Positions 15,904 through 57,440 of a stretch of DNA of 64,000 bases are shown one piece after another. Position 1 is the stretch's first letter, and every line of letters starts with the position of its first letter. The notes under the pieces are model-generated. The model was given only the letters and a program-made list of their open reading frames with translations. It ran no database searches and was not told the origin of the DNA. The position numbers were made by a program, and so were the translations under genes. The stretch spans positions 5,783 through 69,782 of the forward strand of contig CAZRSB010000003.1 in NCBI GenBank assembly GCA_964602715.1, read 5' to 3'. The stretch is from an uncultured Thermoplasmata archaeon (GTDB lineage Archaea > Thermoplasmatota > Thermoplasmata > Halarchaeoplasmatales > Halarchaeoplasmataceae).

Positions 15904-16246
15904 TTTCAGGTTGTTCGATACTGATCCTTTCTCTCGCCAGGAGGCAGTCCTGGACGTGCCTACATCTCTTACAATCCCCAGTAATCCGATCTGATATGTT
16001 TCTAGTCCTCAATATTTCCAACTCTCTTTCCATCTCTTTGATAGCGTGGACCGCCAACCTTGCCTGATCGAAGGTGAATCCTAGCCCTTCTAGCATATCG
16101 ATCAGGATCTTGAAATCAAGAAGTTCAGATGGTCTGGGATGCTGACATTTATCAGGGAGGGGAAGTTTCTGGACGGCTTCCTTTCCAGCCTGTTCTATCT
16201 TTTCTTCCTCTTCAGATGTTAAGGCGTAGTAATTCTTCTCTGTCAT
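15884..16246 (-). CDS. hypothetical protein (element-borne), overlaps Rep start by 20 nt
   Basis: 120-aa ORF co-directional with and operonic to the Rep gene. Contains CKRCRHVQDC. Confidence 0.5.
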   Translation of the reverse strand: MTEKNYYALTSEEEEKIEQAGKEAVQKLPLPDKCQHPRPSELLDFKILIDMLEGLGFTFDQARLAVHAIKEMERELEILRTRNISDRITGDCKRCRHVQDCLLARERISIEQPENDTEKE

Positions 16247-19548: not shown

Positions 19549-20061
19549 ATGAAAGAAAAATCAAGATTGGGAAAGGAAAAAAAATCTAAACCTAAAAGAG
19601 GAAAAGATAGAAAAGATAAGGCGGATCATATGAAGAAGAAAGCTAAATATGACAAAAAAATTGCAAAACAGGAAAAGAAAATAGGCAAATATGAGGGTAA
19701 AATAGAAAAATATCGAAATAAAATAGAAGATTTCAAAGATAAAATAAATAAAGCAAAGGCAAAACAAAGAGAAGCACAGCAGCTTTCAGGGAGAGCACAC
19801 AAGAAAACCCAATCGAAAAAAGAGAGAGGTGACAGGGAAAATAAGGCTAAACATATGAAAGAGAAGGCAAAATATGATAAGACTATCGCAAAGCAGGAAA
19901 AGAAAATCGGTAAATATGAAGAGAAAATAAGTAAGTATAAAAATAAGATTAAAAAATATAAAAAGAAAAAGAAAGATGCTTTGGGAAAAAAGAAGGAACT
20001 GAAAAAAAAATCTAATGAAGAAAAGAAATCTATAAGAAAAGACTCTAATAAAGAAAAGTAA
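19549..20061 (+). CDS. Lys-rich protein with a ~75-aa internal duplication
   Basis: Repeats of HMKKKAKYDKKIAKQEKKIGKYEGKIEKYRNKI. GGTGG RBS. Confidence 0.5.
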   Translation: MKEKSRLGKEKKSKPKRGKDRKDKADHMKKKAKYDKKIAKQEKKIGKYEGKIEKYRNKIEDFKDKINKAKAKQREAQQLSGRAHKKTQSKKERGDRENKAKHMKEKAKYDKTIAKQEKKIGKYEEKISKYKNKIKKYKKKKKDALGKKKELKKKSNEEKKSIRKDSNKEK

Positions 20062-20407
20062 TAATTTTTTGAGAGAAAATCATTCTGTTCATTTTGATAA
20101 TAAATATGCTTGATTCAAAACGATCTATTCGCAGTAGTAAAAGATTAATAGGTGGAGAATAGATATGAAAAGTAAAAAGGGTTCAGAAACATAGAATTGA
20201 TACCTAATAGACATCATGAATCCTAAATAGGAAGATATCTCAGGAATTATGATTTAAACCAATAATTTGCTTGATGATCTGTACTGGTAATGACAATCAA
20301 AAAGTAAATGAATACGGATCTTATTGCATTTTATACGGCTTAGATATATGGGTGACTAAAACTCTCCCTCCCTTGATACTTCCTTTACTAATGAAATAAG
20401 GTTAGAT

Positions 20408-21280
20408 ATGATGGATAAATACTTACAAGCGATCAATATCACAAATAAAAAAAAGGGATTCGAATTAAAGGATGTATCATTAACTTTAAAGGAGGGGGAG
20501 ATAACCCTAATTGGAGGAAAAAACGGGTCGGGTAAAACAACATTATTGGAAACTCTTTGTTTGGTTCAAGAGCCTACCGAGGGGAGAATCGAATGCTTAG
20601 GAAAAAGGGTTTATGATGGAACTATCAACAGAAAAATTTTAAAAAATATTCAGCCAGACTTGGGTGCTCAATTTCAAAATGTCCAATTATTCAAAAATCT
20701 AACAGTAAAGGAAACATTAAATTTGTATTCAATACACCAAACATCAAGCAAGTTGGCTGAACTCATTTCTGAATGTGAGCCCATTCAGAACTATCTTGAC
20801 AAACGAATAGGACAACTTTCTTCAGGTAAAAAACAGCTTACAAAATTTTTATTGAGCATTATTAATGAACCAAAAATAGTTTTTTTAGATGAACCTGGAT
20901 CTAATTTAGACGATATCACAAAAAGATGGATATACAATAAAATCAAAAAGATGAAAAAACAAAAAGTATCATTCATAATTACCCTAAATGAGGAATGGCC
21001 CATTATCGATATCTCTGATAAACTGATTATCTTAAATGACGGAGATATAAAAAAAGAGATAAAGAACTTCAATTTGATTGGAAATGGAACGGTGATTATA
21101 ATAAATTCAGAAGAACTAACATCAGAATTGAAGGAAAAAAGTTGGATTCATAGGATAGAAAAAGTCGAAGAAGGTTTAAAAATATTTACGAATCTAAAAA
21201 AGAAAAGTGTCTTAAAAAAAATAAATTCTCTTGAATCCATTGAAGAGCTCAGGAGGATCAAACTAAATGATTTTTATTGA
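20408..21280 (+). CDS. ABC transporter ATP-binding protein
   Basis: Walker A GGKNGSGKTT, signature LSSGKKQ, Walker B VFLDEPGSNLD. Confidence 0.8.
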   Translation: MMDKYLQAINITNKKKGFELKDVSLTLKEGEITLIGGKNGSGKTTLLETLCLVQEPTEGRIECLGKRVYDGTINRKILKNIQPDLGAQFQNVQLFKNLTVKETLNLYSIHQTSSKLAELISECEPIQNYLDKRIGQLSSGKKQLTKFLLSIINEPKIVFLDEPGSNLDDITKRWIYNKIKKMKKQKVSFIITLNEEWPIIDISDKLIILNDGDIKKEIKNFNLIGNGTVIIINSEELTSELKEKSWIHRIEKVEEGLKIFTNLKKKSVLKKINSLESIEELRRIKLNDFY

Positions 21281-21283
21281 AGG

Positions 21284-22414
21284 GTGAACAGATTGAAAGA
21301 AAATCTAAAACAGATGAAAAAATTTATCGGAGCTCAATTTAAGCGGAGGTTTAGGAACAAGAAATTTCTCATTTGGATCATCATAATGCCACTAATTCTG
21401 ATGTGTTTTTTGAATTCTATAGGAGGTGGTGAAAATATTAGCGCAAGTGTAGCTGTTGTAGACGAAGATAATACATTACGGTCAAACCTTGCAGTAGCTA
21501 CCTTGGAAAATGAAGAAAGATTAAAAATTGAAGAAATCGATTCTCTAGAAAATGGAAAACAAATGATAAAAAGAGGAGATATAGAAGGCTTAGTACGGAT
21601 TCCAAAAGGATTTTCTGAACACTTAAAAGAAATTCAACAAGGAAACCATTCTGATCAATTAGCATTAGATGTTTACTATCCTGAAGGTGAAGATGAGGAT
21701 ATTTATGGATTGATATTAGATGGTATATCCTCAAAGATAAATGAATATTTCATTGAAGAAAAAATTGAAAGACCTGTTATATTACAGCACGAATCTATAG
21801 ATGTTAGGGAATGGGGGTTTTCAGACCTTCTGTTTCCAGCAGGCATGATACTTGTAATCCTTCATTTAGGATTATTCGCCTCTAGCAATACTGCCTCATC
21901 TCTTACTGAAAACAATACTTACAAGTCTTTGAAAATGCTTCCTGTAACTCAGAATTATCCTGTTTTCGGTATGATCATAACAGATTCATTATTCACTACC
22001 CTCGGAGTACTGATCGCGTTATTCTCAGGAATAATTCTATTTGGGACCTCGATATCTTTCATTAGTTTTATTGGCATTTTAATTATAATTTTAATCTCTT
22101 CTTTAATGCTGTCTTTTTTGGGTTGTTCTGTAGGTTATATATCATCAAATCAAATATCCGCCCAAGGAATCTCTTTCATTTTTGTGTTCCCTTTTATCTT
22201 TTTTTCATACAGCTATCTTTTTTCCAATCTTTTTCCAGATTACTTTTCGCAGATCTCTAAATTTTTACCTACTTACCCAATAGTGAATCAATTTGAAACC
22301 ATATTATTTCATGAAATCTCCCTATACAATTTCGTTGTTAAACTAAGCCTGCTTTTTATCTGGCTTATTGTTATCATGACTGCTTTTATGATTATACTAA
22401 AGAAAGTCAAATGA
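21284..22414 (+). CDS. ABC-2 family transporter permease
   Basis: N-terminal TM, large extracytoplasmic loop, then 5 C-terminal TM segments. Directly follows the ATPase gene. GTG start. Confidence 0.7.
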   Translation: MNRLKENLKQMKKFIGAQFKRRFRNKKFLIWIIIMPLILMCFLNSIGGGENISASVAVVDEDNTLRSNLAVATLENEERLKIEEIDSLENGKQMIKRGDIEGLVRIPKGFSEHLKEIQQGNHSDQLALDVYYPEGEDEDIYGLILDGISSKINEYFIEEKIERPVILQHESIDVREWGFSDLLFPAGMILVILHLGLFASSNTASSLTENNTYKSLKMLPVTQNYPVFGMIITDSLFTTLGVLIALFSGIILFGTSISFISFIGILIIILISSLMLSFLGCSVGYISSNQISAQGISFIFVFPFIFFSYSYLFSNLFPDYFSQISKFLPTYPIVNQFETILFHEISLYNFVVKLSLLFIWLIVIMTAFMIILKKVK

Positions 22415-22449: not shown

Positions 22450-22525
22450 TGGTGCGGGTTCGGGGATTTGAACCCCGGTTATAGCCTTGGCAAGGCTAGG
22501 TGATACCAAACTACACCAAACCCGC
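22450..22525 (-). tRNA. tRNA-Gly(GCC): tRNA-Gly (anticodon GCC), CCA encoded
   Basis: Reverse complement folds as GCGGGTT/AACCCGC acceptor, anticodon loop TTGCCAA, T-arm CGGGG-TTCAAAT-CCCCG. 76 nt. Confidence 0.85.
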
Positions 22526-22640: not shown

Positions 22641-25565
22641 TCAAATCCCATCTAATTTAAGAATTAGTATCACGTACAATGGATTATCTTCATAATCTTT
22701 AACTATATGAAGGTCCGCCTTCCCACTCAATTCTTCACCATCCCCCGTTAAACAATCGATATCTATTTCTGTTTCTTCTATTTTTCCCGTAAAAAGTTTT
22801 TCAAGAGTATCTTTAACTTTATTTTCATATCCTTCCGATAAAAATTTATTATAAGAGTCATCAGTAAGCTGTCCTTCTGGCATCTCTAAAATTTCATAGA
22901 GACGGTCATTTGCTTCTCTTATTTTATGATCCCTATCTATCAAGATTATTGGATCCTCATAATTTTCAAATAAAACCCTAAATGATTCCTGACTTTCTCT
23001 CAATGCACCAAAGGTTTTTCTAAAGTCTGTTACGTCTGTTAAAGACACTATACATTTCTTAGTTTCTGGTATTAAAGATATTTCTACTAGGCAGTATCGG
23101 ATATCTCCAAATCGATTGATGGCTCTAAACGAATATCTATTAGGGGCTTCCCCACCTTCTCTTCTTAACTTGTGATACTTCTTCATCTTTTTTTTATCCT
23201 CTTCATAAATGAACTTTGACCAATCCATCTTTCCTTCGATCTCATCTTTTGAATAACCCACTATTTTTTCGAATTCTTCATTCACTAAAGAAATAGTTTT
23301 GTCCTCTTCGATAATCAACATAGCTGTACCTGTACTCTCAAATATTGTTCTGTATTTTTTCTCAGATTCTTTGAGTTTTTTCTGAGTGCGTTTGAGTTCC
23401 GTGATATCAACCAAAGAAAGTATAACGTGAGAAAATTTTTCTTCTGTTTCTCCTGAAGTAGTCCCTTTGCAGTAAAAATTTCTTTTCTCTCCACTCAGAG
23501 TATAATTTACCATATCACTAGTTTCAAATGTGTCAACACCCTCTGAGATCGCTACTAGTTCCTGTCTGAGACCTTCAAGACTTCTTTCTTTGAATATCTC
23601 TCCAAAATTATCTATTAGTTCTTTTTTATTCTCAGCTTCGAAAAGTTCTATAGATCTCTCATTTACATCTTTTACTCTCAAAAGTTCAACGCACTCTTCT
23701 ACAACAGAGTGTTTATCCTCTAAATATGCTTCCATATCATCAATATCTTTGTCTTTTTTTATCTTCTCTAAATATGCTTTAACCTCTGAAAAATCTTCTT
23801 CCCATATAGGTATAGGAGCCTTATCAAATAATTTTCTGTATCTTCTTTCATTTCTTTTCAGTTTTTCGAGTAATTCCACCCTTTCATGAGCCTCTCTTAC
23901 ATGTAAAAAAAGAAGTTTAAGGATGTTAAGATCTTCTTCACTAAAGTAATCTTCCATCTTTGACATGGCTTGGAACACACCAATATCCCCTATTGGAACT
24001 GTTATACCTGATCTATATCCTTCAATCCTCGGTTCTATATGTTCAGATTTACCAAAATTTAGGGTTATATCAGGTTTTTTTGTTTCCCAGACTTTGCCAA
24101 GTACACCATCATCTTTATCTCTTTTCATTAGATCTTGATCGAAATCTTCTAAATTTTCTCTGATATCGGAGGAAGCTGCTTTAAGGACTAATTTATCATC
24201 TTCTTCTACAAAAATACCTCCCATATTTATGTTCAAGATATCTTCAGCTACCTGTACGGCTGTATTATATATTGTTTCCATCTGCGTTTGTTTCTCGATC
24301 TTAGTCGTGGCTTCAAGTACACCTTCTATCTTATTCAGACTATCTTTCAATCTGTTTTCTGCTAACTTTCTATCTGTTATATCTAATGTTACCTCTACGA
24401 TACCAGTTACATCTCCTTTTTCATCTATTCTAGGAGTTGCTCTTATCAACCAGTATTTTCCATCTACCTCTTGGATCCCCTCTTGCTGACAACCTTTATC
24501 TATGGCCCTTTTTACTGGACAATCTACACATACCTCATCTCTATCTCTGATAATATTGTAGCATTTCTTACCTTTTAAATCCTCTTTTGAGATCGCACAA
24601 TATCTTTTTACTTCTTCATTAGTCCATATAATATTCAGATCTTTATCCAAATATGTTATACATTCTTTTGCCGTATCGAGTATGAGTGACTTTTCTTCCT
24701 TATTTTCAATACGTTCTACTGCTTCTTTGATATGTGATGCTAATATCTTAGCCATCTCAAGATCAAATTCATCGTAATGGTTCACCTCACGTGAAACTGT
24801 ACTGAAAATACCGAAATCCCCAACAGGGACTAGAACACCCGATTTCAATTCTTTTTGAGTCATGCCAGTATCCTGTCGTTTCGTAACGTCCTTAACCAAA
24901 AATGATTCTTTATTTTTAAAACAACGCCCTTTTAAACCGATTTCAGTTGAAACACGCTGCCCAACAGTAAATGAGCTATGACCTACAGTACATTTTACCT
25001 CTAACGCCTCACCGTCATAGATGAAAATAACACTAGTATAAAAACCAAGTATATCTCTTGCCGATTTTAAGGCTTGCTTATAAACATCTTGTTTAGTTTG
25101 GCATCTTCCCAATTTAGCACTAGCCTTGTAAAGTGCTTTTATCTTGGTCTCTCTTTCTTCTAACTTCATTCGACTATTGACTTTTTCAGTGATATCTGTG
25201 ATAACACCTTCAACCCGTTCAATTTCTCCATCATCTCTTCTTATTCCACATCCTTGTTCCCACACCCATCTCTCTTCATTTTCTTTTGTTATTATTTTAT
25301 AAGTGATTTGAAATTGTTCATCATCTTCAACAGATCTCTTTATTTCATCCCATACTTCTCCTCTAAAATCTGAATGGATTATGTCTGACCATGATAACTC
25401 CTGGTTGTCTATAAAATCCTCTGGTTTGTAACCTGTGATCTCTTCACAATTTTTGCTCAAAAATTTCATAGTCCAATCTCTATCAAACTTACATCTATAA
25501 ACTATCCCTGGAATATTTTCCAATAAAGATACCAGTCTCTCTTCCTTTTCCCTTATAACATCCAT
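22641..25565 (-). CDS. multi-PAS/GAF domain sensor protein
   Basis: 974 aa with several PAS-like and GAF-like blocks. No clear histidine kinase H-box seen. Confidence 0.7.
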   Translation of the reverse strand: MDVIREKEERLVSLLENIPGIVYRCKFDRDWTMKFLSKNCEEITGYKPEDFIDNQELSWSDIIHSDFRGEVWDEIKRSVEDDEQFQITYKIITKENEERWVWEQGCGIRRDDGEIERVEGVITDITEKVNSRMKLEERETKIKALYKASAKLGRCQTKQDVYKQALKSARDILGFYTSVIFIYDGEALEVKCTVGHSSFTVGQRVSTEIGLKGRCFKNKESFLVKDVTKRQDTGMTQKELKSGVLVPVGDFGIFSTVSREVNHYDEFDLEMAKILASHIKEAVERIENKEEKSLILDTAKECITYLDKDLNIIWTNEEVKRYCAISKEDLKGKKCYNIIRDRDEVCVDCPVKRAIDKGCQQEGIQEVDGKYWLIRATPRIDEKGDVTGIVEVTLDITDRKLAENRLKDSLNKIEGVLEATTKIEKQTQMETIYNTAVQVAEDILNINMGGIFVEEDDKLVLKAASSDIRENLEDFDQDLMKRDKDDGVLGKVWETKKPDITLNFGKSEHIEPRIEGYRSGITVPIGDIGVFQAMSKMEDYFSEEDLNILKLLFLHVREAHERVELLEKLKRNERRYRKLFDKAPIPIWEEDFSEVKAYLEKIKKDKDIDDMEAYLEDKHSVVEECVELLRVKDVNERSIELFEAENKKELIDNFGEIFKERSLEGLRQELVAISEGVDTFETSDMVNYTLSGEKRNFYCKGTTSGETEEKFSHVILSLVDITELKRTQKKLKESEKKYRTIFESTGTAMLIIEEDKTISLVNEEFEKIVGYSKDEIEGKMDWSKFIYEEDKKKMKKYHKLRREGGEAPNRYSFRAINRFGDIRYCLVEISLIPETKKCIVSLTDVTDFRKTFGALRESQESFRVLFENYEDPIILIDRDHKIREANDRLYEILEMPEGQLTDDSYNKFLSEGYENKVKDTLEKLFTGKIEETEIDIDCLTGDGEELSGKADLHIVKDYEDNPLYVILILKLDGI

Positions 25566-29325: not shown

Positions 29326-32300
29326 TCAAAAATCTAGAGAAAGTCGTTTTTTCTTTTTTTTCTCCTTTTCCGCTTTCTTTTCCTCTTTCTCTTCTTGAAA
29401 TTCATACACTACTAAATTAGTTCCGCAATCCGGACACTCCTCTTCTTCCTGAGAACAAGAGACATCATAGAGTTTACCACAGCTACAGTAAATTAGTTTT
29501 TCACCTTCATCGATCATCTCCCCACAAACTTCACATTTTTCCTTTTCCTCGGCAACTCTTAACTCTGAGCCTAGACTCACATCTAAAATTTCTTCGTCTT
29601 CAAAATTTTTATCGTCAAATATTCTAAGACCGCTAGCTACGATAGAGGCTCCCTCGTTCGAAGGTTTGATTTCACATGTGATCACGTGTTCTTCTCCAGC
29701 TTTTAGCTTTTCTTTGTTTGATATATCTCTAATCTCGCCCCCTATGAGTTCTATTTTGATATCTTTAGCGAGAGCTTGACCCTGGTTTATTAGTGAAATA
29801 TCCGCTTCATCCCATTTATCTACAGTAAATTTTCCAGAAACGTGCACTTCAATATCTGGGCTGTAATCAGAAAGCACATCCTCAATCTCTTGATGAGCTT
29901 CTTTTATTTTTTCAAAGGCTTCTATTTTGTCTTTCTCCTTTTTTATTGCCTCGGCCTCCTCTAATTTTTCTACAGCTGATTTGACGGAAGCTCCGAATTT
30001 TTTAGCATTTTTTATGGATTCCTTAACTTGGTTTAGAATCTCATCATACTCTTTCTGCTTCTTCAGACCTGAAATATTTTTAGCCTCTTCAATATATTTC
30101 GAAGCTTCTATAGGGTTATCAAACTCCATGAAAAATCTAGCTTTCTTCAGTATCTCTAACGCATTATCGACATCCTTTTCTCCTTTTTTTCTGACGTCTC
30201 CTTCTAGATTCTCAATGACGTCCCTGATCACGTCTTTATTTTCTGCTAAAATTTTATCAATATCTTCTAGAATCCTTTTAGCTTTTTTATATTGGCCATT
30301 TCTGTGATATTGGATGACTTCATTTTTCCTTTCTTCAAACTCAGATATATCTATTTCTCGATTTTCAAACTCTTCCATCAGGGTGTCAATATTATCTATA
30401 AAAAGTTTGATGTCTTCATACGCTTTCAATAGATTACTTAATTCTTCCCAAGCTTTCCAGGAATTTTCAATCACCTTAGTGTAGAAACCACTCTCATATG
30501 ATTGATTTGCTTGTTTCAGTATTTTTTTTGGTTGTTCAATTAGGATACCTTGATCCTGGAGCCTTTCTAACTCCTCTTTAGTTTTCGTAAGGCTTATGTT
30601 GGCTAATTTCTTCTGCATGCCCATCCTTTCTAGCTCACCCTCTGTTTGCATCGCGAACTTTACACCTTCGAGAAATCTCCTTTCATTTTTAGCTTTAACA
30701 GCTTTTTGAATCTTATTTTCAGCAAGAGCGGTATAAACGCCTTTATCACTTAGATCTTTTATTCTTTTTTTAGAATTGTTTATGATCTGTTCTAATCTAT
30801 CCTGCTGAGCTTTCTTACTGTCATCTAAAATTTTTTCAGCCTTTTCAAAAGCTTCATGATACCTAGCTTTTTCTATGTCTTCTTCAGCTTTTTCACTTAA
30901 CTTCCTTTCCTTACTTACATCCGCACCCATTATAGCAGCCTTCATCAAAGTGGTCTTGGCCTCAGCTAACACTTTTCTAGCTGATTTACCTTCTTCTTTA
31001 ATTTCATCAAGATCTTCTTTCAGGCCTTTTAACTTTTCTAGAGAATCCGTAATCCTTTTTTGGTTCAGCAAAGATCTTGTCCGTTTAATCTTATCTTTTT
31101 TCTCATCAACTTGAAAGCCCATCTCTTTCGCACAATCGCAGATGTCTTTAATCTTTTCTAATTCCTCATCTAAAGATTTTTCCAATATATCATTCAATTC
31201 GGTCTGTTTCTCTTTTATAATCTCCTTCACATCCGATTTTTCCCTGTCACTAACGGACTCTTTGATCTCTTGAAATTCTTCCTCGAATTCTTTAACCTCT
31301 TTATCAGAGAGCTCATAATTTTCTATTTTTTCTAATTTTTCTTCGATATTATGTGTTACCTCTTCAAAAAGATTATCAAATTCAAAGTTAGTGAGGATTT
31401 CATCAGCTTCCTGGGTTTTTTGTATGCTGTTCTCGTAATTCCTTGCTTCAAATTCTTTTTTTGCCTCTAACAATATGTTCTTTGCTGAATTGAGTTCATC
31501 ACCATCTTTTTTCTTTCTAAGATCTTTTAATTTAGATGCCGCGGCTGAAAGCATATCATAAGCTTCTTTTCTTTTATCTTTCAACTTAACCAGCTCCTTT
31601 TTCAATTTCTTTGCCGAAATTATACTATCGACAAAATTTTTTCTTTCTGTTTCTTCCTCTAAGTTTTTTAAATTTTCTTCATAAGCATCGGTTTCGACCC
31701 CCTCCTTCTTCGCCTCTTCTATCTCCTCTCTCGTTGTAGTCAGGGTTTTCTCAGCTATCAGAGATAGCGAGTTATTTAGGCTATCAAAAGCTTCTTCTAT
31801 TAAGGGCAAAGCTTCTGTTTCTTCGTCATCTTTCATGAAATCCTTAGCTTTTTCTATTTTTTCCTTTTGAGTGTCTATGTCTTCTACTTCTATCTCTTCT
31901 TTTTCAACTAGCTCTATTTTATCAAGAACCTCATCAATCTTGCTTTCTGCGGCACCCATCTTGACTCTTTTTACTTTTTTTCTTAAATGTTCTAGATTCT
32001 TTATAGAATCATCATATCTACTTTCTTCGATGCTTTTTTCACCTTTTGATACGATATCACTGAGCTCCTCCTTTGTCTCCTTTTCGATGTCTTCTATCTC
32101 GATTTGTTTTTCCCTAATTTCATCGTACTCCTGCTTTAATTTGCTTTCGATTTTTTCTGAAATTATCTCTATTCCTTTTTGAGCTATCTCAGCACTTTCT
32201 AAGTGATCAGAAGCTTCATATTTTTCACGGCTTCTTTTTATCTGATCAGAAAGTGATTCTAAATCGATATCTAATTTTTTTGCGCTTTTAGATAGATCTT

Positions 32301-33738
32301 CTAAATCACTGATCAGTGATTTAGCCTTTTCTTTTGATGCCTTAACTATTTTCTCCTGAAGCTCCTGGGATAAAGATGTTACTTTTTCTAAATTTTTTTC
32401 ATCCCATTGATATTTTATATCCTCTATTAACCCCTCTAACTCTTCAAAATCCTCCTCAAAAACGTTAATTAGTTTCCTGACTTCATCTTTCTGTTCTTGT
32501 ATCTTTTCTTTAGTTTTTTCAAACTTTTCAGTTAATTCTTGAACCTTTTCTCTTCCTTTGTGAGCCCACTCTAAAGATTCCTTGTAATCGTTCTTTTTCA
32601 AAGAATCTCTAGCAGTATTTAAAAATCGCATAGGCTCTTTTATGTCTGCACCTATCTCTTTAGCTTTTATGAAATCCTCCCTAGATTCCGCTATAGTATT
32701 CAAAACTTTATCGAATTTTTTTTCTTCAATTTTTTCTAAAGCTTCATTTAATAATCTATCAGCTTCTTCAATTTTGTCTTTTTTTTCTAAATTTTCAGCC
32801 TCCTCCCTCATCTCTTCTACTGTTTTTATAGGAGCATCTATCTCTTCTGCTTCCTCTATCTCCTCATCTAATTTCCTGAATTTTGATCCTAATATCTTTT
32901 CATCATAGATCTGATTGATCTCTTTTTTACCTTGTTTTAAATCTCTCAAAGCTTCTAAATATTTTTCCTCTTTGATTTTAGATTTTCCGTCATTTAATAA
33001 TTTATCCAAATTCGTTAATTTAATATCCTTGTTTTCTTCTAATTTCGCTTTTTTCCTTTCGATTTCGTTTATATTTTCCTGTAAGCCTTCTTCTACATGG
33101 TCTAGTATCTCTTTTTCTATATCTTGGATCAGAGACAAAGCTCTTTCAAATTCTTGAGAATCCAAAGAATACTCAGCCTTCGAAACCAACTCTTTCCCGG
33201 CCTCTTTTACATCTTCTGGTTCATCAAGGAAATCTATTAGAGACTCTAATCTTTCTTTCCTTTCTATTAAACCTTTTTCAATTATTTTCTCTGATTCCTT
33301 TTTCACCGTCACGATTTCATTTAAACCTTCTTCAATATTTCCCTTTTCTAGAAGAACCTTACAGTTTTCGATCTTTTCCTGCATCTCCTTAGATCCGCTC
33401 TCAGAATCAACTTCTTCTAGTATCTTATCTAAAGGACCAATCAACTCTTCATATTTTGAGATGCTTTGTGATTTTATAGATTCAATAACTTCTTGAAAAA
33501 TATCCAATGATTTTCTAAAATTCTTTTGTTCTAATTCTTCTTTACCTTCCTCAAATGACGTCTTCACATCTTCCAATTCTAAATCTACCTCGGAGGACTC
33601 AGCCAAATCAAGGAGTTTTTCCGTTTCTTTCATCATCTCCTGGGCATTTTTCTTTTCTTCCGCCGTCTTTTTGGCTTTTTCCTCCATCTCCTTTGCAAGT
33701 TGTCTTGCTTTTAGATACTTACCTGACAATCTTTTCAC
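29326..33738 (-). CDS. giant coiled-coil protein (1470 aa) with C-terminal beta-rich domain and zinc ribbons
   Basis: E/K-rich heptad-like sequence through about 1250 aa. C-terminus: CEVCGEMIDEGEKLIYCSCGKLYDVSCSQEEEECPDCG, then a KEKKKKK tail. Confidence 0.7.
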   Translation of the reverse strand: MKRLSGKYLKARQLAKEMEEKAKKTAEEKKNAQEMMKETEKLLDLAESSEVDLELEDVKTSFEEGKEELEQKNFRKSLDIFQEVIESIKSQSISKYEELIGPLDKILEEVDSESGSKEMQEKIENCKVLLEKGNIEEGLNEIVTVKKESEKIIEKGLIERKERLESLIDFLDEPEDVKEAGKELVSKAEYSLDSQEFERALSLIQDIEKEILDHVEEGLQENINEIERKKAKLEENKDIKLTNLDKLLNDGKSKIKEEKYLEALRDLKQGKKEINQIYDEKILGSKFRKLDEEIEEAEEIDAPIKTVEEMREEAENLEKKDKIEEADRLLNEALEKIEEKKFDKVLNTIAESREDFIKAKEIGADIKEPMRFLNTARDSLKKNDYKESLEWAHKGREKVQELTEKFEKTKEKIQEQKDEVRKLINVFEEDFEELEGLIEDIKYQWDEKNLEKVTSLSQELQEKIVKASKEKAKSLISDLEDLSKSAKKLDIDLESLSDQIKRSREKYEASDHLESAEIAQKGIEIISEKIESKLKQEYDEIREKQIEIEDIEKETKEELSDIVSKGEKSIEESRYDDSIKNLEHLRKKVKRVKMGAAESKIDEVLDKIELVEKEEIEVEDIDTQKEKIEKAKDFMKDDEETEALPLIEEAFDSLNNSLSLIAEKTLTTTREEIEEAKKEGVETDAYEENLKNLEEETERKNFVDSIISAKKLKKELVKLKDKRKEAYDMLSAAASKLKDLRKKKDGDELNSAKNILLEAKKEFEARNYENSIQKTQEADEILTNFEFDNLFEEVTHNIEEKLEKIENYELSDKEVKEFEEEFQEIKESVSDREKSDVKEIIKEKQTELNDILEKSLDEELEKIKDICDCAKEMGFQVDEKKDKIKRTRSLLNQKRITDSLEKLKGLKEDLDEIKEEGKSARKVLAEAKTTLMKAAIMGADVSKERKLSEKAEEDIEKARYHEAFEKAEKILDDSKKAQQDRLEQIINNSKKRIKDLSDKGVYTALAENKIQKAVKAKNERRFLEGVKFAMQTEGELERMGMQKKLANISLTKTKEELERLQDQGILIEQPKKILKQANQSYESGFYTKVIENSWKAWEELSNLLKAYEDIKLFIDNIDTLMEEFENREIDISEFEERKNEVIQYHRNGQYKKAKRILEDIDKILAENKDVIRDVIENLEGDVRKKGEKDVDNALEILKKARFFMEFDNPIEASKYIEEAKNISGLKKQKEYDEILNQVKESIKNAKKFGASVKSAVEKLEEAEAIKKEKDKIEAFEKIKEAHQEIEDVLSDYSPDIEVHVSGKFTVDKWDEADISLINQGQALAKDIKIELIGGEIRDISNKEKLKAGEEHVITCEIKPSNEGASIVASGLRIFDDKNFEDEEILDVSLGSELRVAEEKEKCEVCGEMIDEGEKLIYCSCGKLYDVSCSQEEEECPDCGTNLVVYEFQEEKEEKKAEKEKKKKKRLSLDF

Positions 33739-51704: not shown

Positions 51705-54700
51705 CTAGTCTTCCTCATCCTCAGAAGGTTTCTTAACGACCCTCTTTTTCACTTTTTTCCTTTTCTTCGGTTTTTTCTTCGTTGTTTCTGGAGATTCGTC
51801 GATCGTCTCTTTCTTATCTTGTTCCTCTTGTTTCTCACTAACATCTTTACTTTTTTCGCTTTCTGTTACTTCTAGGTCTTCATCCTCTAATGATGATATC
51901 TCTTCATCTATATCTAATTCCTCCTCGATCTCTGCGATCTCCTGTAAATCTTCTTCAGCTGCTTCTGACATCTCTTCATCCACCTCCTCGTCTTCTTGTT
52001 CCATCTCAATTTCTCCAAATTCGATAAGACTTTCACCACACTTCTGACAAACAGCCGCATCTACATTATTCAATGTTCCACATTCAGGACATTCTTTACT
52101 GCCCTCTCTCCTCTGTTTTTCTTTTCTTTCTAACCATTCGTCAAAAGTAACAAATGACGGTTGTTCTTTCCACCATTCCATGAACTCTTCTCTAGTTAGT
52201 TCAGTATCTAATTCCTCTTCTGCTCTTCGTTTTTGTTTATCCACAAACTTCCTAAATTGTTTTCTCATTCGCTCAGTGTAATCTTCGACCTCTTCCCCAG
52301 TTTTTACGAATTGGGCATCACACTCTGGACATGTATCAGCATCGGCTGGAATCCATTCTTCACATTCACTACATTTAACGGTATTCAAGTCGAACTCAAC
52401 ACCGCATTTTGGACAATTATTAGCATCAGCTGAGATCGTAGAACCGCAATTACCGCACTCGACCATCTCCCTTTCTCGGAAGAATTTAAAGTAAGCTACA
52501 GTTGATCCTGAACCACCTGCTGCTATTATCACAATAACCAAAAGTACCCACCAAGGCATACCTAGTATCTCCAATGTTTCAGTTTGTGCATTGAATGCCT
52601 CTGAGAAAGTATAATCAGGGCTAGCTTCTGTATGAGCTTGGATAATGATATCATATTCACCTTCCTCTTCAGGTATCTCAATATCCACGGAGAAATCACC
52701 ATTACTATCGGTATCAGTCATCTCGCTTACTTCAGAATCGCCTATTTTCAAAGTGATTGTGACTCCTGTATTAACCAATGGTCTACCATCACCTCTCTCT
52801 AATGTCCCTTCAAAAGTGTATGTGCCTCCAGTGTAAGGGCTTTCAGGGAAGTTCTCATTCGTTATTACAATTTCCTGTATCTCATCTATATCAAGCGACC
52901 ATGAAGTAGAATTGTATAGATATTCCTCTTCTGCCGCTGGGCCGATATACATATTTAAGGTTACTAACTGATCTCCTTGCCCAAACTCAACTGTCCACTC
53001 ATCTTCGATCTCTACAGTATCCTCTTGTTCCAAAACAACTTCATCGTATTCATCCCCTAGGAGTTCATTAGAAGTTTCGTCAGGATATTCGATGTTGATG
53101 TAGGCGGCACCCAGATCTAGAGCAGTTTCATTTGTATTCTGAACTGTTCCACTAAATCGAATCTCACCTTTTTCAATTAGGCTAGTATCCATATCATTAG
53201 GGTAAAATGACTCCCACTCGCCATTTTCTTTAACTTCCCAGGATTCTTCGACCAGAACCAGGTTAGGAGGAGACTTTAAATGCAGTTCTACTTGACCTTC
53301 TCTTACGTTGTTTTGTAGATACTTGTCCCTTTCATTCACGGTTTCTCCATCTATTTCTACCTGAACATCCTCTTTTATCTCAGCTATAATGATGTAATCA
53401 TCCGGAACAGCATCTGAGGTATCCCACTGGAATGTGATCTCAGTATTATGTTCTTCATAACCATCTCTTACATCAAGCGTCTCATCAAAGGTAAGATTGC
53501 CAATCCGTGTTTTTTCTGGTTCAGCAACTCCTACTTCTTGTTTATAATATTCAATCTCAAAATTGGTCACCCTCAGATCACCTTCATTTACTATAGTTGA
53601 GGTGATTACAACAGGGTCTCCTTTAGTTCTTTCCTCTGGGTAATCGATCTCTCCTGTAATAGCTAAATCAACATGTCGCTCAATATTTATCTCATCTGTT
53701 ATACTCAATATGTCTTCGTCTTCTTCCTCCTGATAAGGGTCTAGATCAACTTCTACTCTTATATCTCTAGCTTCTTCAATAGCTCCTAAGTAATGTGTCA
53801 GCATCTCGGCCTCCCAAATCATAGATAAGGTCTCCTCATCTCCGCTCTCTATTCCTTCTTCTAGATTCTCTGAACCAATCTCTATATATTCTCCGTCCTC
53901 ATCTTCAACAAGGAAATCAGCGTTAACTTCTTCTGAAACCCATCCTCCTATGTTCTCAATCGTCGTTTTTATTTCCACTTCCTCACCCACTCTAATGGGG
54001 TCTTCAGAGAATTCAATCGCTTCAATAGTTAATTGAGGTCTTTCAAGTATTGAAAATGATTTGGTCATTCTATCTTCTGTGCCCTCTACATTTTGCTCTC
54101 CATTTTCTACAGATATATCAACATATAATTCATAATCACCAGATTCAACTTCGTCAGTACTCCATTGAATATCTTCAAATGGTTTTACTTGGTCGGGTTC
54201 AAGATAAATACTGTCATTATTATAAATTGAGGATTCTTCTCCTTCAATCCCGATCTCAACTTCAGCACCATATATATCGTCTGCACCAGAATTCTGGACT
54301 TCTGCAGAAAAGGTAATATCCTTACCATCCATAACCTCTCCTTCACGGAAGAAATTGTCCTCATGGAAATTTATCGCATCAACTTCAAGACCCGCTCTTC
54401 TCTTTACAGTCAGATCGGTTGTTTGATAGAGGTTACCTTCTTTACTGTCTAGATCTAACGTCTCTTGGTCTATACTTGCGGTTATCTCTCTTACTTCAGT
54501 AAGATCTTCTACATCCTCACTCATCTCTGCGGTCCAGGTGAAATCAATAGGTTGTGTTTCTATGCCTGGTTCAATGTCAGCAGTATGGATAGATTCCTCA
54601 TCATCTAAAATGAACTCAACTGTTGTAGCTTCGGATGGCCATTCTCCTAAGTTTTCTATATCAGCGGATATCTGTACATTTTCTCCGATATAGTTATCCT

Positions 54701-57440
54701 CTATATCATATAATGTGAGAGAAAGTTCAGGTTTGCTCAATACAGTTATTTCTTCTTCTAGTCTACTTTCAGTTCCTTCTAATTCAACGCTAACTGTATA
54801 ATCACCTAAATCTCCAGGTTCCCATTCAAGTGGATCCGTCTCGTTATACGAATAGGGAGGTCCTGAAATACTTTCTTGCAGTGCTGCCATATCTCCCCCT
54901 GGAGCCCCTTCTATATCAACCTTGAACTCTTCGTGTTCCACCATTACTCCGTCTTTATCAGTTATGTTTATCCAAACTGACAAATCATCTATACCAAACT
55001 CGCCTTCGTTGATTATCCCTGCATAGACATTTACCTTTTCATCTACTAAAAGTTGCCGATTCTCATTCATCCTAATTTCATATTCTTCAGCATCGATATG
55101 TATCTGATCAACTGAAAGATCAGGACCTTCAGTCACAGTTATATTGATTTCATCTATGTTATTCTCACGACACTCTTCTAAGATCTCTTGTTCCGGGTCT
55201 ATTTCAGCAGTTAAAGTATAATCACCTCTACCTACCTCCTCTTCTCCTGGCCACTCAACATATAAAGTCTCATTTTCACCAGGCCCAAGGTCGGACCAAT
55301 CTTTTTCCTCTACAAATTTAATCTTTTCCTCATCTTCTCGTTGACGGTAATAAAAAGCCAGATCGATATTTTTTGCTTCTGACTCTCCAATATTTTTAAC
55401 GGTAAGACCTAATTCTCCCGACTCATCTTCAGGCAGCCTATGTGTCTCTTCACCTTCATATCTAAAGCTCAGATCTTCAACTTCGAGATCCGGTAGGGGA
55501 ACGGGGATGACCACATTGGTAATTTGCGGGTTTTCCATGGTAGGGAAATCTTCAAGATGATCTATCTTTACTTCTTCCTCGACTGAAATGTCATCATCAG
55601 TATAATTTACATAAAGATCATAATTACCAACGAATTTGCTGTTGGGCCAATCTTCAGGATAATTCAACCTGTCGCTCGCTAAAAACATAGTTGTGTTGCC
55701 GTCATCTCCACTCACGTACATTTCTTCGTCGGGGTCGTAATAGCCATATCCTGTTTCATTCAGAAAATCCCAAGCAGCCTGATTATGGGGTTCTGTAAGA
55801 TCATTGGCAAAGTTTATCTCCTCCTCTAAATCATCTTCTATTGCGGGTTTTGGATCAAGTCTGACTCCAGGTAGACCTATACCTCCTTCTGTTGTCACTT
55901 GTAACTCCACTTGTCTGTAAATCCAAGTCTTGTTGTGCTCTTCCTCAGTATTCAAAATCCAAGGATCAACATCATAATTATGATCGCTCACATTATCGTC
56001 AGCTATCTCTAAACCATAGCTCCTAAATTCGCTACCCCCGTACAATCTTATCGTTCTATGGTCCATGTTGGCGTTGTGTAGATATGTTTCTTTACAAGTA
56101 TCTACGTCGTTACCTCTTGGATCAACGTCGCTTTTTTCTATATCTACATCTATAAAACTGTCTATAGCCGTAAATATAGAATTTTCTACATGGATATCAT
56201 TATCATAGGAAGAAACAAGTCTCAGCTCAGTTACGTTTACATAATTATCGCCATCTATGTCATGTCCCTCATGATGTAAACTCAGATCCAGATCAAATAA
56301 CCATCTCCATTGGTCTCCGCGCTCTTCCTCGTAAAATCTACTCAAATCCATTTCCCATATATTTAGGAATTTTTCCCCTAGTGTTTCCGTTTCATCCAAT
56401 TGTATCGCTTCTTCGATCCACCCTTCTTCCGGACTTGAATAATTCAGATAAGCTTCACCATCATAGTCCTCAGAAGTATCATATTCTACCTCTATATATA
56501 AAGAGCTGATCAAATCTACCGGGTTTATATAGGGATATTCTTCTAGATATTCATGTGGAACCATAGGGTTTGAAAGGAACCATTCTCCTATTTCAAGCTC
56601 ATCAATACCTATATCATTATCGTTATCTTGGAGTTCTTCAATTGGCTCACCATCATCGTCCAGCGGGTACCAGGTCATCTCATCGGTGTTATACTCTGTA
56701 TCTCCTTCTGGAAAGTTATCATTCGTATAATAATCATTTATCTCTGATCTTTCCATATATACTTCTGAATTTTGAACAAATAACCTTGGACCGTCATTAT
56801 TGTCCTCTTGAGCTTGAGTTTCTAAATCTCCATCCCACAGATAATCATAATTAGGTATCTCGTCTTCATCTAGAGCTTCGAATCGTGATCCGATCATATC
56901 AAATTCAGAATCTTGGATGTGCACAAATCCAGGAAAAGAGAAGGAGGAATCATTATTTAAAGACAAAAATGATCCATCTTTAATGGTGACATCTGTTTTT
57001 AAAAACGGATGGGACCAACCTTCCTCTTCAGAATCAATCCAGGTCGTGATCGTACTGTTATCAAGGTCAAGAGTTCCAGAATGCACAGTTATATTGTACT
57101 GGTTTTCTGTATCTTGCCTTAAAGTGATCGTCGAATTTATCATTATTAGAGTACCTTCTTCTTCGATTATCACATCTCCATCTACCAAAAGGTCCCTGTC
57201 TTCTTCGATCCGGGTTTCTCCTTCTTCGATGATGAGATCCCCCTCGATATAATCATACCCCATCATACCGACTCCCTTTGGCACTGCTCGTTCAGTTGAA
57301 AGACTTGCACTCCCTACCGCTGATCCTATAGTCGGAGCAACTAGTCCCAAAATTAAAGCAGTCGCGATAATCATGCTCAACATTTTATGTATAGCATCTT
57401 TTTCATCAATCATGGTTTTCCACCGGGATAGTAAATCCAA
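51705..57440 (-). CDS. giant acidic surface protein (1911 aa): signal peptide, CARDB-like repeats, C-terminal TM, cytoplasmic triple zinc-ribbon tail
   Basis: N-terminal hydrophobic segment. Repeated DLSV...VKNIGESEAKN-like CARDB motifs. TM WWVLLVIVIIAAGG near residue 1640. Tail has three CxxC-N12-CxxC zinc ribbons followed by an acidic/K-rich tail. Confidence 0.7.
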   Translation of the reverse strand: MDLLSRWKTMIDEKDAIHKMLSMIIATALILGLVAPTIGSAVGSASLSTERAVPKGVGMMGYDYIEGDLIIEEGETRIEEDRDLLVDGDVIIEEEGTLIMINSTITLRQDTENQYNITVHSGTLDLDNSTITTWIDSEEEGWSHPFLKTDVTIKDGSFLSLNNDSSFSFPGFVHIQDSEFDMIGSRFEALDEDEIPNYDYLWDGDLETQAQEDNNDGPRLFVQNSEVYMERSEINDYYTNDNFPEGDTEYNTDEMTWYPLDDDGEPIEELQDNDNDIGIDELEIGEWFLSNPMVPHEYLEEYPYINPVDLISSLYIEVEYDTSEDYDGEAYLNYSSPEEGWIEEAIQLDETETLGEKFLNIWEMDLSRFYEEERGDQWRWLFDLDLSLHHEGHDIDGDNYVNVTELRLVSSYDNDIHVENSIFTAIDSFIDVDIEKSDVDPRGNDVDTCKETYLHNANMDHRTIRLYGGSEFRSYGLEIADDNVSDHNYDVDPWILNTEEEHNKTWIYRQVELQVTTEGGIGLPGVRLDPKPAIEDDLEEEINFANDLTEPHNQAAWDFLNETGYGYYDPDEEMYVSGDDGNTTMFLASDRLNYPEDWPNSKFVGNYDLYVNYTDDDISVEEEVKIDHLEDFPTMENPQITNVVIPVPLPDLEVEDLSFRYEGEETHRLPEDESGELGLTVKNIGESEAKNIDLAFYYRQREDEEKIKFVEEKDWSDLGPGENETLYVEWPGEEEVGRGDYTLTAEIDPEQEILEECRENNIDEINITVTEGPDLSVDQIHIDAEEYEIRMNENRQLLVDEKVNVYAGIINEGEFGIDDLSVWINITDKDGVMVEHEEFKVDIEGAPGGDMAALQESISGPPYSYNETDPLEWEPGDLGDYTVSVELEGTESRLEEEITVLSKPELSLTLYDIEDNYIGENVQISADIENLGEWPSEATTVEFILDDEESIHTADIEPGIETQPIDFTWTAEMSEDVEDLTEVREITASIDQETLDLDSKEGNLYQTTDLTVKRRAGLEVDAINFHEDNFFREGEVMDGKDITFSAEVQNSGADDIYGAEVEIGIEGEESSIYNNDSIYLEPDQVKPFEDIQWSTDEVESGDYELYVDISVENGEQNVEGTEDRMTKSFSILERPQLTIEAIEFSEDPIRVGEEVEIKTTIENIGGWVSEEVNADFLVEDEDGEYIEIGSENLEEGIESGDEETLSMIWEAEMLTHYLGAIEEARDIRVEVDLDPYQEEEDEDILSITDEINIERHVDLAITGEIDYPEERTKGDPVVITSTIVNEGDLRVTNFEIEYYKQEVGVAEPEKTRIGNLTFDETLDVRDGYEEHNTEITFQWDTSDAVPDDYIIIAEIKEDVQVEIDGETVNERDKYLQNNVREGQVELHLKSPPNLVLVEESWEVKENGEWESFYPNDMDTSLIEKGEIRFSGTVQNTNETALDLGAAYINIEYPDETSNELLGDEYDEVVLEQEDTVEIEDEWTVEFGQGDQLVTLNMYIGPAAEEEYLYNSTSWSLDIDEIQEIVITNENFPESPYTGGTYTFEGTLERGDGRPLVNTGVTITLKIGDSEVSEMTDTDSNGDFSVDIEIPEEEGEYDIIIQAHTEASPDYTFSEAFNAQTETLEILGMPWWVLLVIVIIAAGGSGSTVAYFKFFREREMVECGNCGSTISADANNCPKCGVEFDLNTVKCSECEEWIPADADTCPECDAQFVKTGEEVEDYTERMRKQFRKFVDKQKRRAEEELDTELTREEFMEWWKEQPSFVTFDEWLERKEKQRREGSKECPECGTLNNVDAAVCQKCGESLIEFGEIEMEQEDEEVDEEMSEAAEEDLQEIAEIEEELDIDEEISSLEDEDLEVTESEKSKDVSEKQEEQDKKETIDESPETTKKKPKKRKKVKKRVVKKPSEDEED

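What the first reader, a model, noticed from the sequence alone, without database searches (positions are those of the whole stretch)
51705..57440. 1911-aa acidic CARDB-repeat surface protein with cytoplasmic triple zinc-ribbon tail
It is a type I membrane topology: signal peptide, a long highly acidic ectodomain with repeated CARDB-like beta modules, a single C-terminal TM, then three CxxC-N12-CxxC ribbons and a charged tail inside the cell. Giant acidic cell-surface proteins are characteristic of episymbiotic DPANN and nanohaloarchaea and are candidates for host attachment. An intracellular zinc-ribbon tail suggests signalling or cytoskeletal coupling.
Basis: partly seen in the sequence, partly recalled or inferred. 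Interest (0 to 1): 0.5.

Follow-up and report, generated by a model that had tools for sequence, protein, structure and literature searches.

The report
Giant archaeal surface protein, zinc-ribbon tail
This gene encodes a real 1,902-residue membrane-anchored surface protein of a salt-loving Thermoplasmata archaeon (not a DPANN symbiont); it belongs to an unnamed protein family found across that class, whose most conserved part is a short three-zinc-ribbon tail inside the cell.

Summary
One ORF on the minus strand (51705-57413 from the likely ATG) encodes, in order:
- a signal peptide
- a ~590-aa right-handed beta-helix head
- seven CARDB-like modules and one MG/CarboxypepD-like sandwich
- a single TM helix
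- a 260-aa tail with three CxxC-N10-CxxC ribbons (N10, not N12), an acidic linker and a KKVVKK-type basic end

- **Organism:** it is a halophilic Thermoplasmata archaeon near Ca. Natronoplasma. It is not DPANN or a nanohaloarchaeon.
- **SPEARE:** the protein has none of the three SPEARE domain types.
- **Family:** the protein belongs to an unnamed family. There was one copy in each of 42 MAGs, and at least 167 clusters (50% identity) at E<=1e-30, including non-acidic members from non-halophiles.
- **Tail:** it aligns without indels and is 48-79% identical, against 35-55% for the head. It has no sequence or fold relative in the PDB.
- **Neighbourhood:** in 20 of 42 genome loci and 4 of 6 distant loci the gene abuts a type IV pilus-like cluster with two ATPases and a split platform. 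In this window it does not.

Best reading: an S-layer-like envelope or adhesion protein whose tail couples it to a cytoplasmic partner. Function is inferred, not shown. It is a new variant of a known kind, of moderate interest.

The parts
51705..57413 (-). Whole gene: 1902 codons plus stop, from the likely ATG start.
57306..57413 (-). Sec-type signal peptide, residues 1-36: MIDEKDAIHK, a hydrophobic core, then GSAVGSA.
   Evidence: Hydropathy. The N-terminal hydrophobic segment is conserved in full-length homologues. The cleavage site is inferred; no dedicated predictor was run.
55533..57305 (-). Head module, residues 37-627. It is a right-handed parallel beta-helix with an inserted beta-sandwich and a C-terminal CarboxypepD-like sandwich. 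It has no Pfam match.
52842..55532 (-). Stalk, residues 628-1524: seven tandem CARDB-like Ig-fold modules.
   Evidence: Pfam CARDB. An iterated family profile gives seven domains with i-E from 3e-26 to 7e-4.
52563..52841 (-). Membrane-proximal beta-sandwich, residues 1525-1617, CarboxypepD_reg / MG4-like. It scores below the Pfam cut-off.
52488..52556 (-). Single transmembrane helix, residues 1620-1642: PWWVLLVIVIIAAGGSGSTVAYF.
   Evidence: In every long family member with the full tail a TM segment ends within about 8 residues of the tail start.
52014..52472 (-). Conserved cytoplasmic tail module, residues 1648-1800. Ribbon 1 is at 52404-52457 and ribbon 2 at 52320-52373. A helical segment with invariant WW, QP, F and W residues is at 52104-52286. 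Ribbon 3 is at 52038-52091.
51780..52022 (-). Acidic low-complexity linker, residues 1798-1878, about 50% D+E.
   Evidence: In non-halophile relatives it is replaced by a Pro/Ala-rich linker.
51729..51779 (-). C-terminal basic motif KKKPKKRKKVKKRVVKK, residues 1879-1895. It is a family-wide [KR][KR][VI][VI][KR][KR] short linear motif.

Best explanation
The gene encodes the local orthologue of an undescribed large type I membrane glycoprotein of the cell envelope. The family spans the class Thermoplasmata and occurred once in each MAG that carried it.

A beta-helix head is held away from the membrane on a stalk of CARDB Ig-like modules. The number of stalk modules varies between lineages. The protein is anchored by one C-terminal TM helix.

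It most likely acts as an S-layer-like coat or adhesion protein in organisms that often lack a regular wall. Its strongly constrained cytoplasmic tail would act as a docking module that ties the outer layer to a partner inside the cell. The tail consists of a double zinc ribbon, a Trp-rich helical segment, a third ribbon, a flexible linker and a terminal KKVVKK-type motif.

The most likely partner is the type IV pilus-like machinery encoded next to the gene in many relatives, or its KaiC-like ATPases. The inner face of the membrane is an alternative.

Shown: the architecture, the topology indicators, the family distribution, the tail conservation and the neighbourhood. Inferred: the coat or adhesion role and any partner of the tail.
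For: **Architecture and topology:**

**Family and lineage**
- Only 15 full-length hits were found with the whole protein.
- The tail profile finds 167 representative clusters at E<=1e-30 and 340 at E<=1e-10. In the best 150 the tail lies at the C-terminus; the long entries are 1000-4500 aa and the short ones look like contig-truncated fragments. In the long members with the full tail a TM precedes it.
- The head HMM hits 110 of 184 collected proteins, including distant ones.
- Named members are Thermoplasmata, Thermoplasmatota or Methanomassiliicoccales MAGs, plus one labelled Methanobacteriota.
- 42 genome loci lie in 42 different MAGs, which indicates a single copy. The window itself holds one copy.

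**Housekeeping neighbourhood:** the order nitroreductase | gene | TGT | ABCE1 | ScpA | SMC is shared with relatives.

**Tail constraint:** the tail is 48-79% identical with no indels, against 35-55% for the head. In the same genomes TGT is 61-67% and ABCE1 79-86% identical.

**Link to a type IV pilus-like cluster**
- A convergent cluster of T2SSE, T2SSF, T2SSF, T2SSE and a DUF7289 pilin-like gene directly follows the gene in 20 of 42 genome loci.
- The same is true in 4 of 6 distant non-halophile loci, where the T2SSE is 62-66% identical.

**Literature**
[quoted passage not shown] Zn-ribbon membrane proteins occur in other pilus loci (PMC4858521).
- Thermoplasmatales have an unidentified ~20 nm exterior protein layer instead of an S-layer, and a pilus machine with two ATPases and a split platform (PMC12448462).
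Against: - There is no expression, abundance or localisation evidence for any member.
- No lattice-forming property can be inferred from sequence.
- In this window and its clade (14 loci) the pilus cluster is not adjacent, and none is present in the 64 kb.
- Where the cluster is adjacent it lies on the opposite strand, so it is not co-transcribed with the gene.
- I could not establish that the family occurs in cultured Thermoplasmatales, where the exterior protein layer was seen.
- The tail model is of medium confidence only (pTM 0.41).
- The top structural matches of the head are adhesins and polysaccharide-active enzymes. A specific binding or catalytic role therefore cannot be excluded.
Confidence: 0.5

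Rival explanations
1. It is a dedicated adhesin. The beta-helix head binds a specific ligand, such as a polysaccharide, a mineral or another cell, and works alongside the neighbouring pili. The protein is a low-copy attachment organelle and not a general coat.
Against: The family is single-copy and vertically inherited with housekeeping synteny, and its head is conserved. Adhesins involved in partner recognition are usually multi-copy and hypervariable. The beta-helix fold alone does not indicate adhesion. This reading also overlaps the best explanation and does not exclude it.
Confidence: 0.25
2. It is a transmembrane receptor. Ligand binding or mechanical load on the ectodomain is passed through the single TM helix to the zinc-ribbon tail, which recruits or releases a cytoplasmic effector.
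For: The tail is the most conserved part of the protein and ends in a short linear motif after a flexible linker. This layout is typical of docking tails. KaiC-like ATPases, which are known pilus regulators, lie directly upstream in L048, L051 and L052 (PMC4858521).
Confidence: 0.12
3. It is a surface-anchored polysaccharide lyase, epimerase or hydrolase. The beta-helix is catalytic and degrades or remodels extracellular glycans for a heterotrophic archaeon.
Against: No Pfam or NCBIfam carbohydrate-active family matches, even at E<=1. Sequence identity to those enzymes is 7-14%. The middle of the head is variable or absent in distant members. An enzyme would not need a conserved 260-aa cytoplasmic tail.
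Confidence: 0.08
4. It is a SPEARE-like host-interaction protein of an episymbiotic DPANN or nanohaloarchaeon.
For: The gross topology is the same: a large ectodomain, a C-terminal TM helix and a conserved cytoplasmic portion (PMC6642349). The protein is very acidic.
Against: The organism is a Thermoplasmata archaeon. There is no serine protease, laminin-G or type III restriction domain. No SPEARE-type protein appears among the homologues. Family members exist in non-halophiles.
Confidence: 0.01

Closest known systems
'S-layer like proteins' encoded in euryarchaeal PilA/PilB3-type type IV pilus loci (Makarova et al. 2016, PMC4858521)
   Same: Both are secreted proteins (the paper gives a C-terminal TM anchor only for the Thermoproteales examples) encoded beside a pilus ATPase/TadC module. 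Here the module has two ATPases and two platform genes. The paper notes the same for Aciduliprofundum, and PMC12448462 describes it for Cuniculiplasma.
   Different: Those proteins are defined only by context and belong to various arCOGs. No conserved cytoplasmic triple zinc-ribbon tail is described for them. Homology to this family was not tested because no sequences were available. In this window the pilus cluster is not adjacent.
SPEARE proteins of Nanohaloarchaeota (Hamm et al. 2019, PMC6642349)
   Same: Both are giant, acidic, mostly extracytoplasmic proteins with a C-terminal TM helix. In both, the cytoplasmic portion is the most conserved region.
   Different: SPEARE proteins carry serine protease, laminin-G adhesion and type III restriction-enzyme domains, are 3,300-8,500 aa long and occur in DPANN lineages. 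This protein has a beta-helix head, CARDB modules and zinc ribbons, is 1,902 aa long and comes from Thermoplasmata. No sequence relationship was found.
Haloarchaeal S-layer glycoproteins, such as the Haloferax volcanii S-layer glycoprotein (from general knowledge)
   Same: Both are very acidic, N-glycosylation-rich, Ig-like multi-domain envelope proteins held at the membrane by their C-terminus.
   Different: Those proteins use a PGF-CTERM / archaeosortase lipid anchor or a short TM helix with almost no cytoplasmic part. They have no beta-helix head and no zinc ribbons.
Beta-helix passenger domains of bacterial autotransporter adhesins (pertactin 2iou, Vag8 7akv, Hap 3syj)
   Different: Identity is 8-14%. 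The secretion and anchoring systems are entirely different. This is a resemblance in fold only.
Pfam DZR (PF12773), Zn_ribbon_3 (PF13248) and CARDB (PF07705)
   Same: The individual ribbons and Ig modules match these generic domain models above their cut-offs.
   Different: No model covers the 153-aa tail as a unit (two ribbons, a Trp-rich helical segment, a third ribbon) or the 590-aa head. Public annotation reads 'hypothetical', 'CARDB domain-containing', or wrongly 'ribosomal protein L40E' or 'subtilase'.

Membership tests
SPEARE (nanohaloarchaeal giant surface proteins) | Serine protease domain in the ectodomain | tested here: not met
   No peptidase family appears in Pfam at E<=1, for the whole protein or for its nine segments.
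SPEARE (nanohaloarchaeal giant surface proteins) | At least one laminin-G adhesion domain | tested here: not met
   No laminin-G or LamG-like match.
SPEARE (nanohaloarchaeal giant surface proteins) | Cytoplasmic type III restriction-enzyme domain | tested here: not met
   The cytoplasmic part holds only zinc ribbons, a helical segment and low-complexity sequence.
SPEARE (nanohaloarchaeal giant surface proteins) | Large ectodomain, C-terminal TM helix, cytoplasmic C-terminus | tested here: met
CARDB domain proteins (PF07705) | Match to the CARDB model above the gathering score | tested here: met
   103 bits against a cut-off of 22.7, with 5 stretches. Four single modules score 23-45 bits.
Double zinc ribbon (PF12773) / Zn_ribbon_3 (PF13248) | Match above the gathering score, with paired CxxC knuckles | tested here: met
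   41.2 and 41.0 bits against cut-offs near 27. There are six CxxC motifs with N10 spacing. Metal binding itself was not tested.
Right-handed parallel beta-helix (pectate lyase-like / autotransporter passenger fold) | Predicted three-dimensional fold superposes on known beta-helices | tested here: met
Archaeal S-layer protein | Forms a two-dimensional paracrystalline lattice and is among the most abundant cell proteins | not testable with these tools
   This needs microscopy or proteomics of a cultured carrier. Only indirect support exists: single copy, lineage-wide distribution, sequon enrichment and a C-terminal anchor.
Type IV pilus-associated 'S-layer like protein' (Makarova 2016) | Encoded in or next to a pilus ATPase/TadC locus | tested here: inconclusive
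   Met for 20 of 42 genome loci and 4 of 6 distant loci of the family. Not met in this window or its clade of 14 loci.
Type IV pilin / archaellin-like protein | Class III signal peptide: a [KR]-[GA] cleavage motif before the hydrophobic stretch | tested here: not met
   The N-terminus reads ...AIHK-MLSMIIATAL..., with no G/A at -1 and a Sec-type GSA motif after the hydrophobic core (sequence). No Pilin_N match.

The most novel reading that the evidence does not exclude
The 153-aa triple zinc-ribbon tail may be a previously unrecognised transmembrane coupling module. Through it, Thermoplasmata, many of which have no cell wall or regular S-layer, would physically connect their outer protein layer to a cytoplasmic machine.

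The giant protein would then be the unidentified 'exterior protein layer' component, acting as the anchor or stator for the two-ATPase type IV pilus machinery. The tail or its terminal KKVVKK motif would dock on the PilB3-like or KaiC-like ATPases.
Probability: 0.15. Interest if true: 0.75.

Novelty: new variant of a known kind. Interest (0 to 1): 0.5.

Why it matters
Thermoplasmata include wall-less organisms whose surface layer has been imaged, but its proteins have not been identified. How such cells anchor pili and archaella without an S-layer is an open question (PMC12448462).

This family is a concrete candidate. It is single-copy, conserved across the class and surface-exposed, and it is recurrently encoded tail-to-tail with the pilus machine. 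Its cytoplasmic tail is conserved at a level between a tRNA-modifying enzyme (TGT) and ABCE1.

The finding defines two domains that lack models, the head and the tail. It also corrects misleading automatic names such as 'ribosomal protein L40E' and 'subtilase'. Finally, it shows that extreme acidity here marks a saline habitat, not a symbiotic lifestyle.

Tried and rejected
- **SPEARE or DPANN origin:** rejected on lineage and on domain content.
- **TTG start at 57440:** rejected in favour of the ATG at 57413.
- **N12 spacing of the ribbons:** corrected to N10.
- **Internal repeats by self-BLAST:** nothing found. The modules are too divergent, so an iterated family profile was needed.
- **NCBIfam:** no family.
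- **Word-indexed search with the tail profile:** it returned only short fragments. A search with a distant full-length member returned 6 proteins. Neither widened the taxonomy much.
- **AlphaFold-database fold search:** unavailable. Presence in cultured Thermoplasmatales could therefore not be checked.
- **Literature:** searches for CARDB plus zinc ribbon, Halarchaeoplasmatales, and Thermoplasmata surface proteins found no description of this family.
- **Co-transcription with the pilus cluster:** rejected, because the cluster is always on the opposite strand.
- **Second copy in the window:** none, and no T2SSE, T2SSF or DUF7289 genes either.
Full report

Yes. The minus strand carries one uninterrupted ORF, 51705..57440. 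The ATG nine codons downstream (57413) is the better start for three reasons:
- The public protein P0001 is 1902 aa long and 100% identical from that Met.
- Homologues begin at the aligned position.
- A GGTGG motif lies 6 nt upstream (sequence printed).

Kyte-Doolittle scanning finds only two hydrophobic segments. One is N-terminal and is followed by a small-residue GSA motif. The other is at residues 1620-1642.

Pfam reports CARDB at E 1e-29 with five stretches, Zn_ribbon_3 and DZR at about 1e-10, and a weak CarboxypepD_reg/MG4 match just before the TM helix.

Scanned as separate segments, four CARDB modules pass the curated cut-off on their own. A profile iterated on the family's own repeats resolves seven tandem modules between residues 628 and 1524.

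Six CxxC motifs form three ribbons.

The ectodomain has net charge -344 and only about 5% K+R.

**2. Topology**

No dedicated predictor was available, so I used indicators that do not depend on one.
- In this protein the 15 residues after the TM hold three K/R, against none before it.
- The ectodomain has 19 N-x-S/T sequons, where shuffles give 11 +/- 3. The tail has none.
- Twelve of the fourteen Cys are the ribbon ligands.

Across 120 long family members the same asymmetry holds:

| Indicator | Outside / ectodomain | Inside / tail |
|---|---|---|
| K+R in the 15 residues flanking the TM | 0.57 | 1.80 |
| Sequons per 100 aa | 2.05 | 0.10 |
| Cys content | 0.18% | 5.1% |

**3. Whose gene is it?**

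The neighbours are archaeal housekeeping genes:
- ABCE1/RLI, archaeosine TGT, a nitroreductase, an unsplit RpoB, SMC, Pus10 and DUF655.
- On the longer source contig, the rest of the RNA polymerase operon.

Every named homologue is a Thermoplasmata or Thermoplasmatota MAG.

A pattern scan of one genome per GTDB species found 42 loci in 42 different MAGs. Forty-one are labelled Thermoplasmata or Thermoplasmatota and one is labelled only 'archaeon'. They include Ca. Natronoplasma, Ca. Saliniplasma and Ca. Haladaptatiplasma. The taxonomy look-up places Ca. Natronoplasma in the order Ca. Halarchaeoplasmatales; the other two genera were not looked up.

The window's ABCE1 is 86% and its TGT 67% identical to those of a Ca. 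Natronoplasma sp. MAG. This is not a DPANN or nanohaloarchaeal genome.

The window's proteome is moderately acidic, with pI around 5. That is consistent with a saline habitat. The surface protein is more extreme mainly because it is depleted in K and R.

**4. The family**

All 13 close homologues with a complete C-terminus share the same plan: a signal peptide, a ~600-aa head, a variable number of Ig-like modules, a TM helix and a tail.

*The tail*
- The tail alignment has 154 columns, no indel and 77% mean column identity. All 12 Cys and a set of aromatic residues (Y, F, WW, P, F, W) are invariant.
- Tail identity to the window protein is 48-79%, against 35-55% for the head.
- In the same genomes TGT is 61-67% and ABCE1 79-86% identical.
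- The tail is thus constrained like a core enzyme, while the ectodomain drifts and changes length.

*Wider distribution*
- A full HMMER scan of 1.84 billion representatives with the tail profile gave 1601 hits at E<=1e-3, 340 at E<=1e-10 and 167 at E<=1e-30.
- In the best 150 the tail lies at the C-terminal end; the long entries are 1000-4500 aa, and about a third are shorter, apparently contig-truncated, fragments.
- In every long member with the full tail a TM segment ends within about 8 residues of the tail start, and every complete tail keeps six CxxC motifs.
- Many members have ordinary charge, with D+E of 8-17%.
- Named distant members include a Methanomassiliicoccales MAG and other Thermoplasmata MAGs.
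- A head HMM hits 110 of the 184 collected proteins, including distant ones. The first ~230 and the last ~150 positions are the conserved core.
- This is therefore one orthologous family across the class, not a fusion specific to halophiles.

*Downstream of the third ribbon*
- Halophiles have an acidic linker, and other lineages have a Pro/Ala-rich one.
- Nearly all members end in a [KR][KR][VI][VI][KR][KR] motif, such as PKKVVKK or RRIVRRP. The motif is sometimes repeated.

**5. Structure**

*Head.* The AF2 model of the head, built with 14 sequences, has pLDDT 74.7 and pTM 0.74. It shows a right-handed parallel beta-helix with an inserted sandwich and a C-terminal sandwich that carries a helical hairpin.

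*Tail.* The AF2 model of the tail has pLDDT 70 and pTM 0.41. It shows three ribbon hairpins and helices at positions 60-88, 94-101 and 110-123. The helical part is the best predicted, with pLDDT 84-89.

**6. Genomic context**

In the window's clade the order is nitroreductase (divergent) | gene | TGT | ABCE1 | ScpA-like | SMC. Fourteen loci share it.

In 20 other genome loci the gene is instead followed, tail-to-tail on the opposite strand, by a five-gene cluster. The cluster holds:
- a DUF7289 protein with a pilin-type N-terminus
- a PilB3-like T2SSE ATPase
- two T2SSF platform genes
- a second ATPase

Six of those 20 loci keep the upstream nitroreductase. The arrangement nitroreductase | gene, facing the pilus cluster, is therefore probably ancestral.

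The same cluster directly follows the gene in four of six distant, non-halophilic loci that I examined (L048, L049, L051, L053). There the ATPase is 62-66% and the platform proteins 50-59% identical to the halophile versions. The upstream genes are unrelated.

Two of those loci also carry giant Pilin_N+CARDB(+VWA) proteins and an M14/C11 peptidase upstream. Three carry a KaiC-like ATPase upstream.

This is the only neighbour that persists across the family's depth.

The layout of two ATPases plus a split platform matches the CdiP pilus machinery described in Cuniculiplasma (PMC12448462). I compared the architecture only, not the sequences.

Makarova et al. (PMC4858521) reported three relevant points:
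[quoted passage not shown] For the Thermoproteales examples the paper specifies attachment by a single C-terminal TM domain.
- Aciduliprofundum has two ATPases in one locus.
- Zn-ribbon membrane proteins occur in other archaeal pilus loci.

The 64-kb window itself contains no pilus genes.

**7. Interpretation**

Shown:
- the architecture and the topology indicators
- the lineage and the size of the family
- one copy per MAG among the 42 MAGs that carry it
- the strong constraint on the tail
- the recurrent adjacency to a type IV pilus-like cluster

Inferred: the protein is an S-layer-like envelope or adhesion protein. A beta-helix head sits on an Ig-like stalk, and the tail docks the outer layer to something inside the cell.

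The pilus ATPases, KaiC-like ATPases or the inner face of the membrane are the obvious candidates. The invariant Trp/Phe patch and the terminal basic-hydrophobic motif are the likely contact elements.

I give this about 0.5. The adhesin reading overlaps it (0.25). A receptor reading (0.12) and an enzyme reading (0.08) cannot be excluded. The SPEARE/DPANN reading is refuted.

**8. Comparison with known families and novelty**

SPEARE proteins share only the gross topology, and the fact that the cytoplasmic portion is the best conserved. Their three defining domain types are absent here.

Haloarchaeal S-layer glycoproteins share the acidity, the glycosylation and the C-terminal anchoring. They lack a cytoplasmic domain.

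Large archaeal surface proteins with Ig-like repeats and a C-terminal TM helix are a known kind. New here are the conserved 153-aa triple zinc-ribbon tail with its terminal motif, the head without a model, and the recurrent link to the two-ATPase pilus cluster.

I found no description of the family in eight literature searches. Public records call it 'hypothetical', 'CARDB domain-containing', 'subtilase' or 'ribosomal protein L40E'.

I rate it a new variant of a known kind, with interest 0.5.

**9. Limits**
- There are no expression or localisation data.
- Presence in cultured Thermoplasmatales could not be checked.
- The tail model is of medium confidence.
- Pilus adjacency is absent in this particular genome region.

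Noticed in passing
L017-L038, L045, L005/L036, L048, L049, L051, L053 (downstream of the homologous gene); absent from the window: A type IV pilus-like cluster lies tail-to-tail with the giant gene in 20 of 42 genome loci and 4 of 6 distant loci. It holds a DUF7289 pilin-like gene, two PilB3-like T2SSE ATPases and two T2SSF platform genes. The layout equals the CdiP machinery of Cuniculiplasma.
   Followed up: partly
L049:1-8901 and L053:1-8857: Upstream of the family member, on the same strand, lie two giant Pilin_N+CARDB(+VWA) proteins (1,783-2,555 aa) and a ~1,000-aa Peptidase_M14+Peptidase_C11 protein. Together they form a large surface-protein gene block next to the pilus cluster.
   Followed up: no
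L048:6804-8709, L051:6932-8842, L052:6365-8807: A KaiC-like ATPase (PF06745, ~235-245 aa) and an unannotated 368-466-aa protein lie directly upstream of the giant gene in three distant lineages. KaiC-family ATPases are reported pilus-associated regulators (PMC4858521).
   Followed up: no
L051:15348-15899: A separate 183-aa double zinc-ribbon (DZR) protein is encoded between the giant gene and the pilus cluster.
   Followed up: no
P0089 and P0117 tails: Some distant family members carry a fourth CxxC...CxxC ribbon inside the Pro/Ala-rich linker, between the conserved tail module and the terminal basic motif.
   Followed up: no
window 29326-33738 (-): A 1,470-aa ORF with no Pfam family at E<=1e-4. 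It is both very acidic and very basic (26% D+E, 19% K+R), and has only a faint RING-finger-like match at residues 1398-1438.
   Followed up: partly
window 12574-15903 (-): A 1,109-aa ORF with no significant Pfam family. Only weak helix-turn-helix matches appear near residue 1030. The region also has higher GC (0.40-0.44) than its surroundings.
   Followed up: partly
window 9803-12058 (-): A 751-aa protein combines a GmrSD_N restriction-endonuclease N-terminal domain with a Schlafen AlbA_2 domain. This looks like a defence-type gene.
   Followed up: no
window 22641-25565 (-): A 974-aa multi-PAS/GAF sensor protein with no recognised output domain in the Pfam table. A tRNA-Gly(GCC) gene lies just downstream of it, at 22450-22525 (-).
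   Followed up: no
window 1-64000: GC content ranges from 0.31 (20001-22000) to 0.44 (4001-6000 and 14001-16000) in 2-kb windows. This hints at patches of different origin.
   Followed up: no
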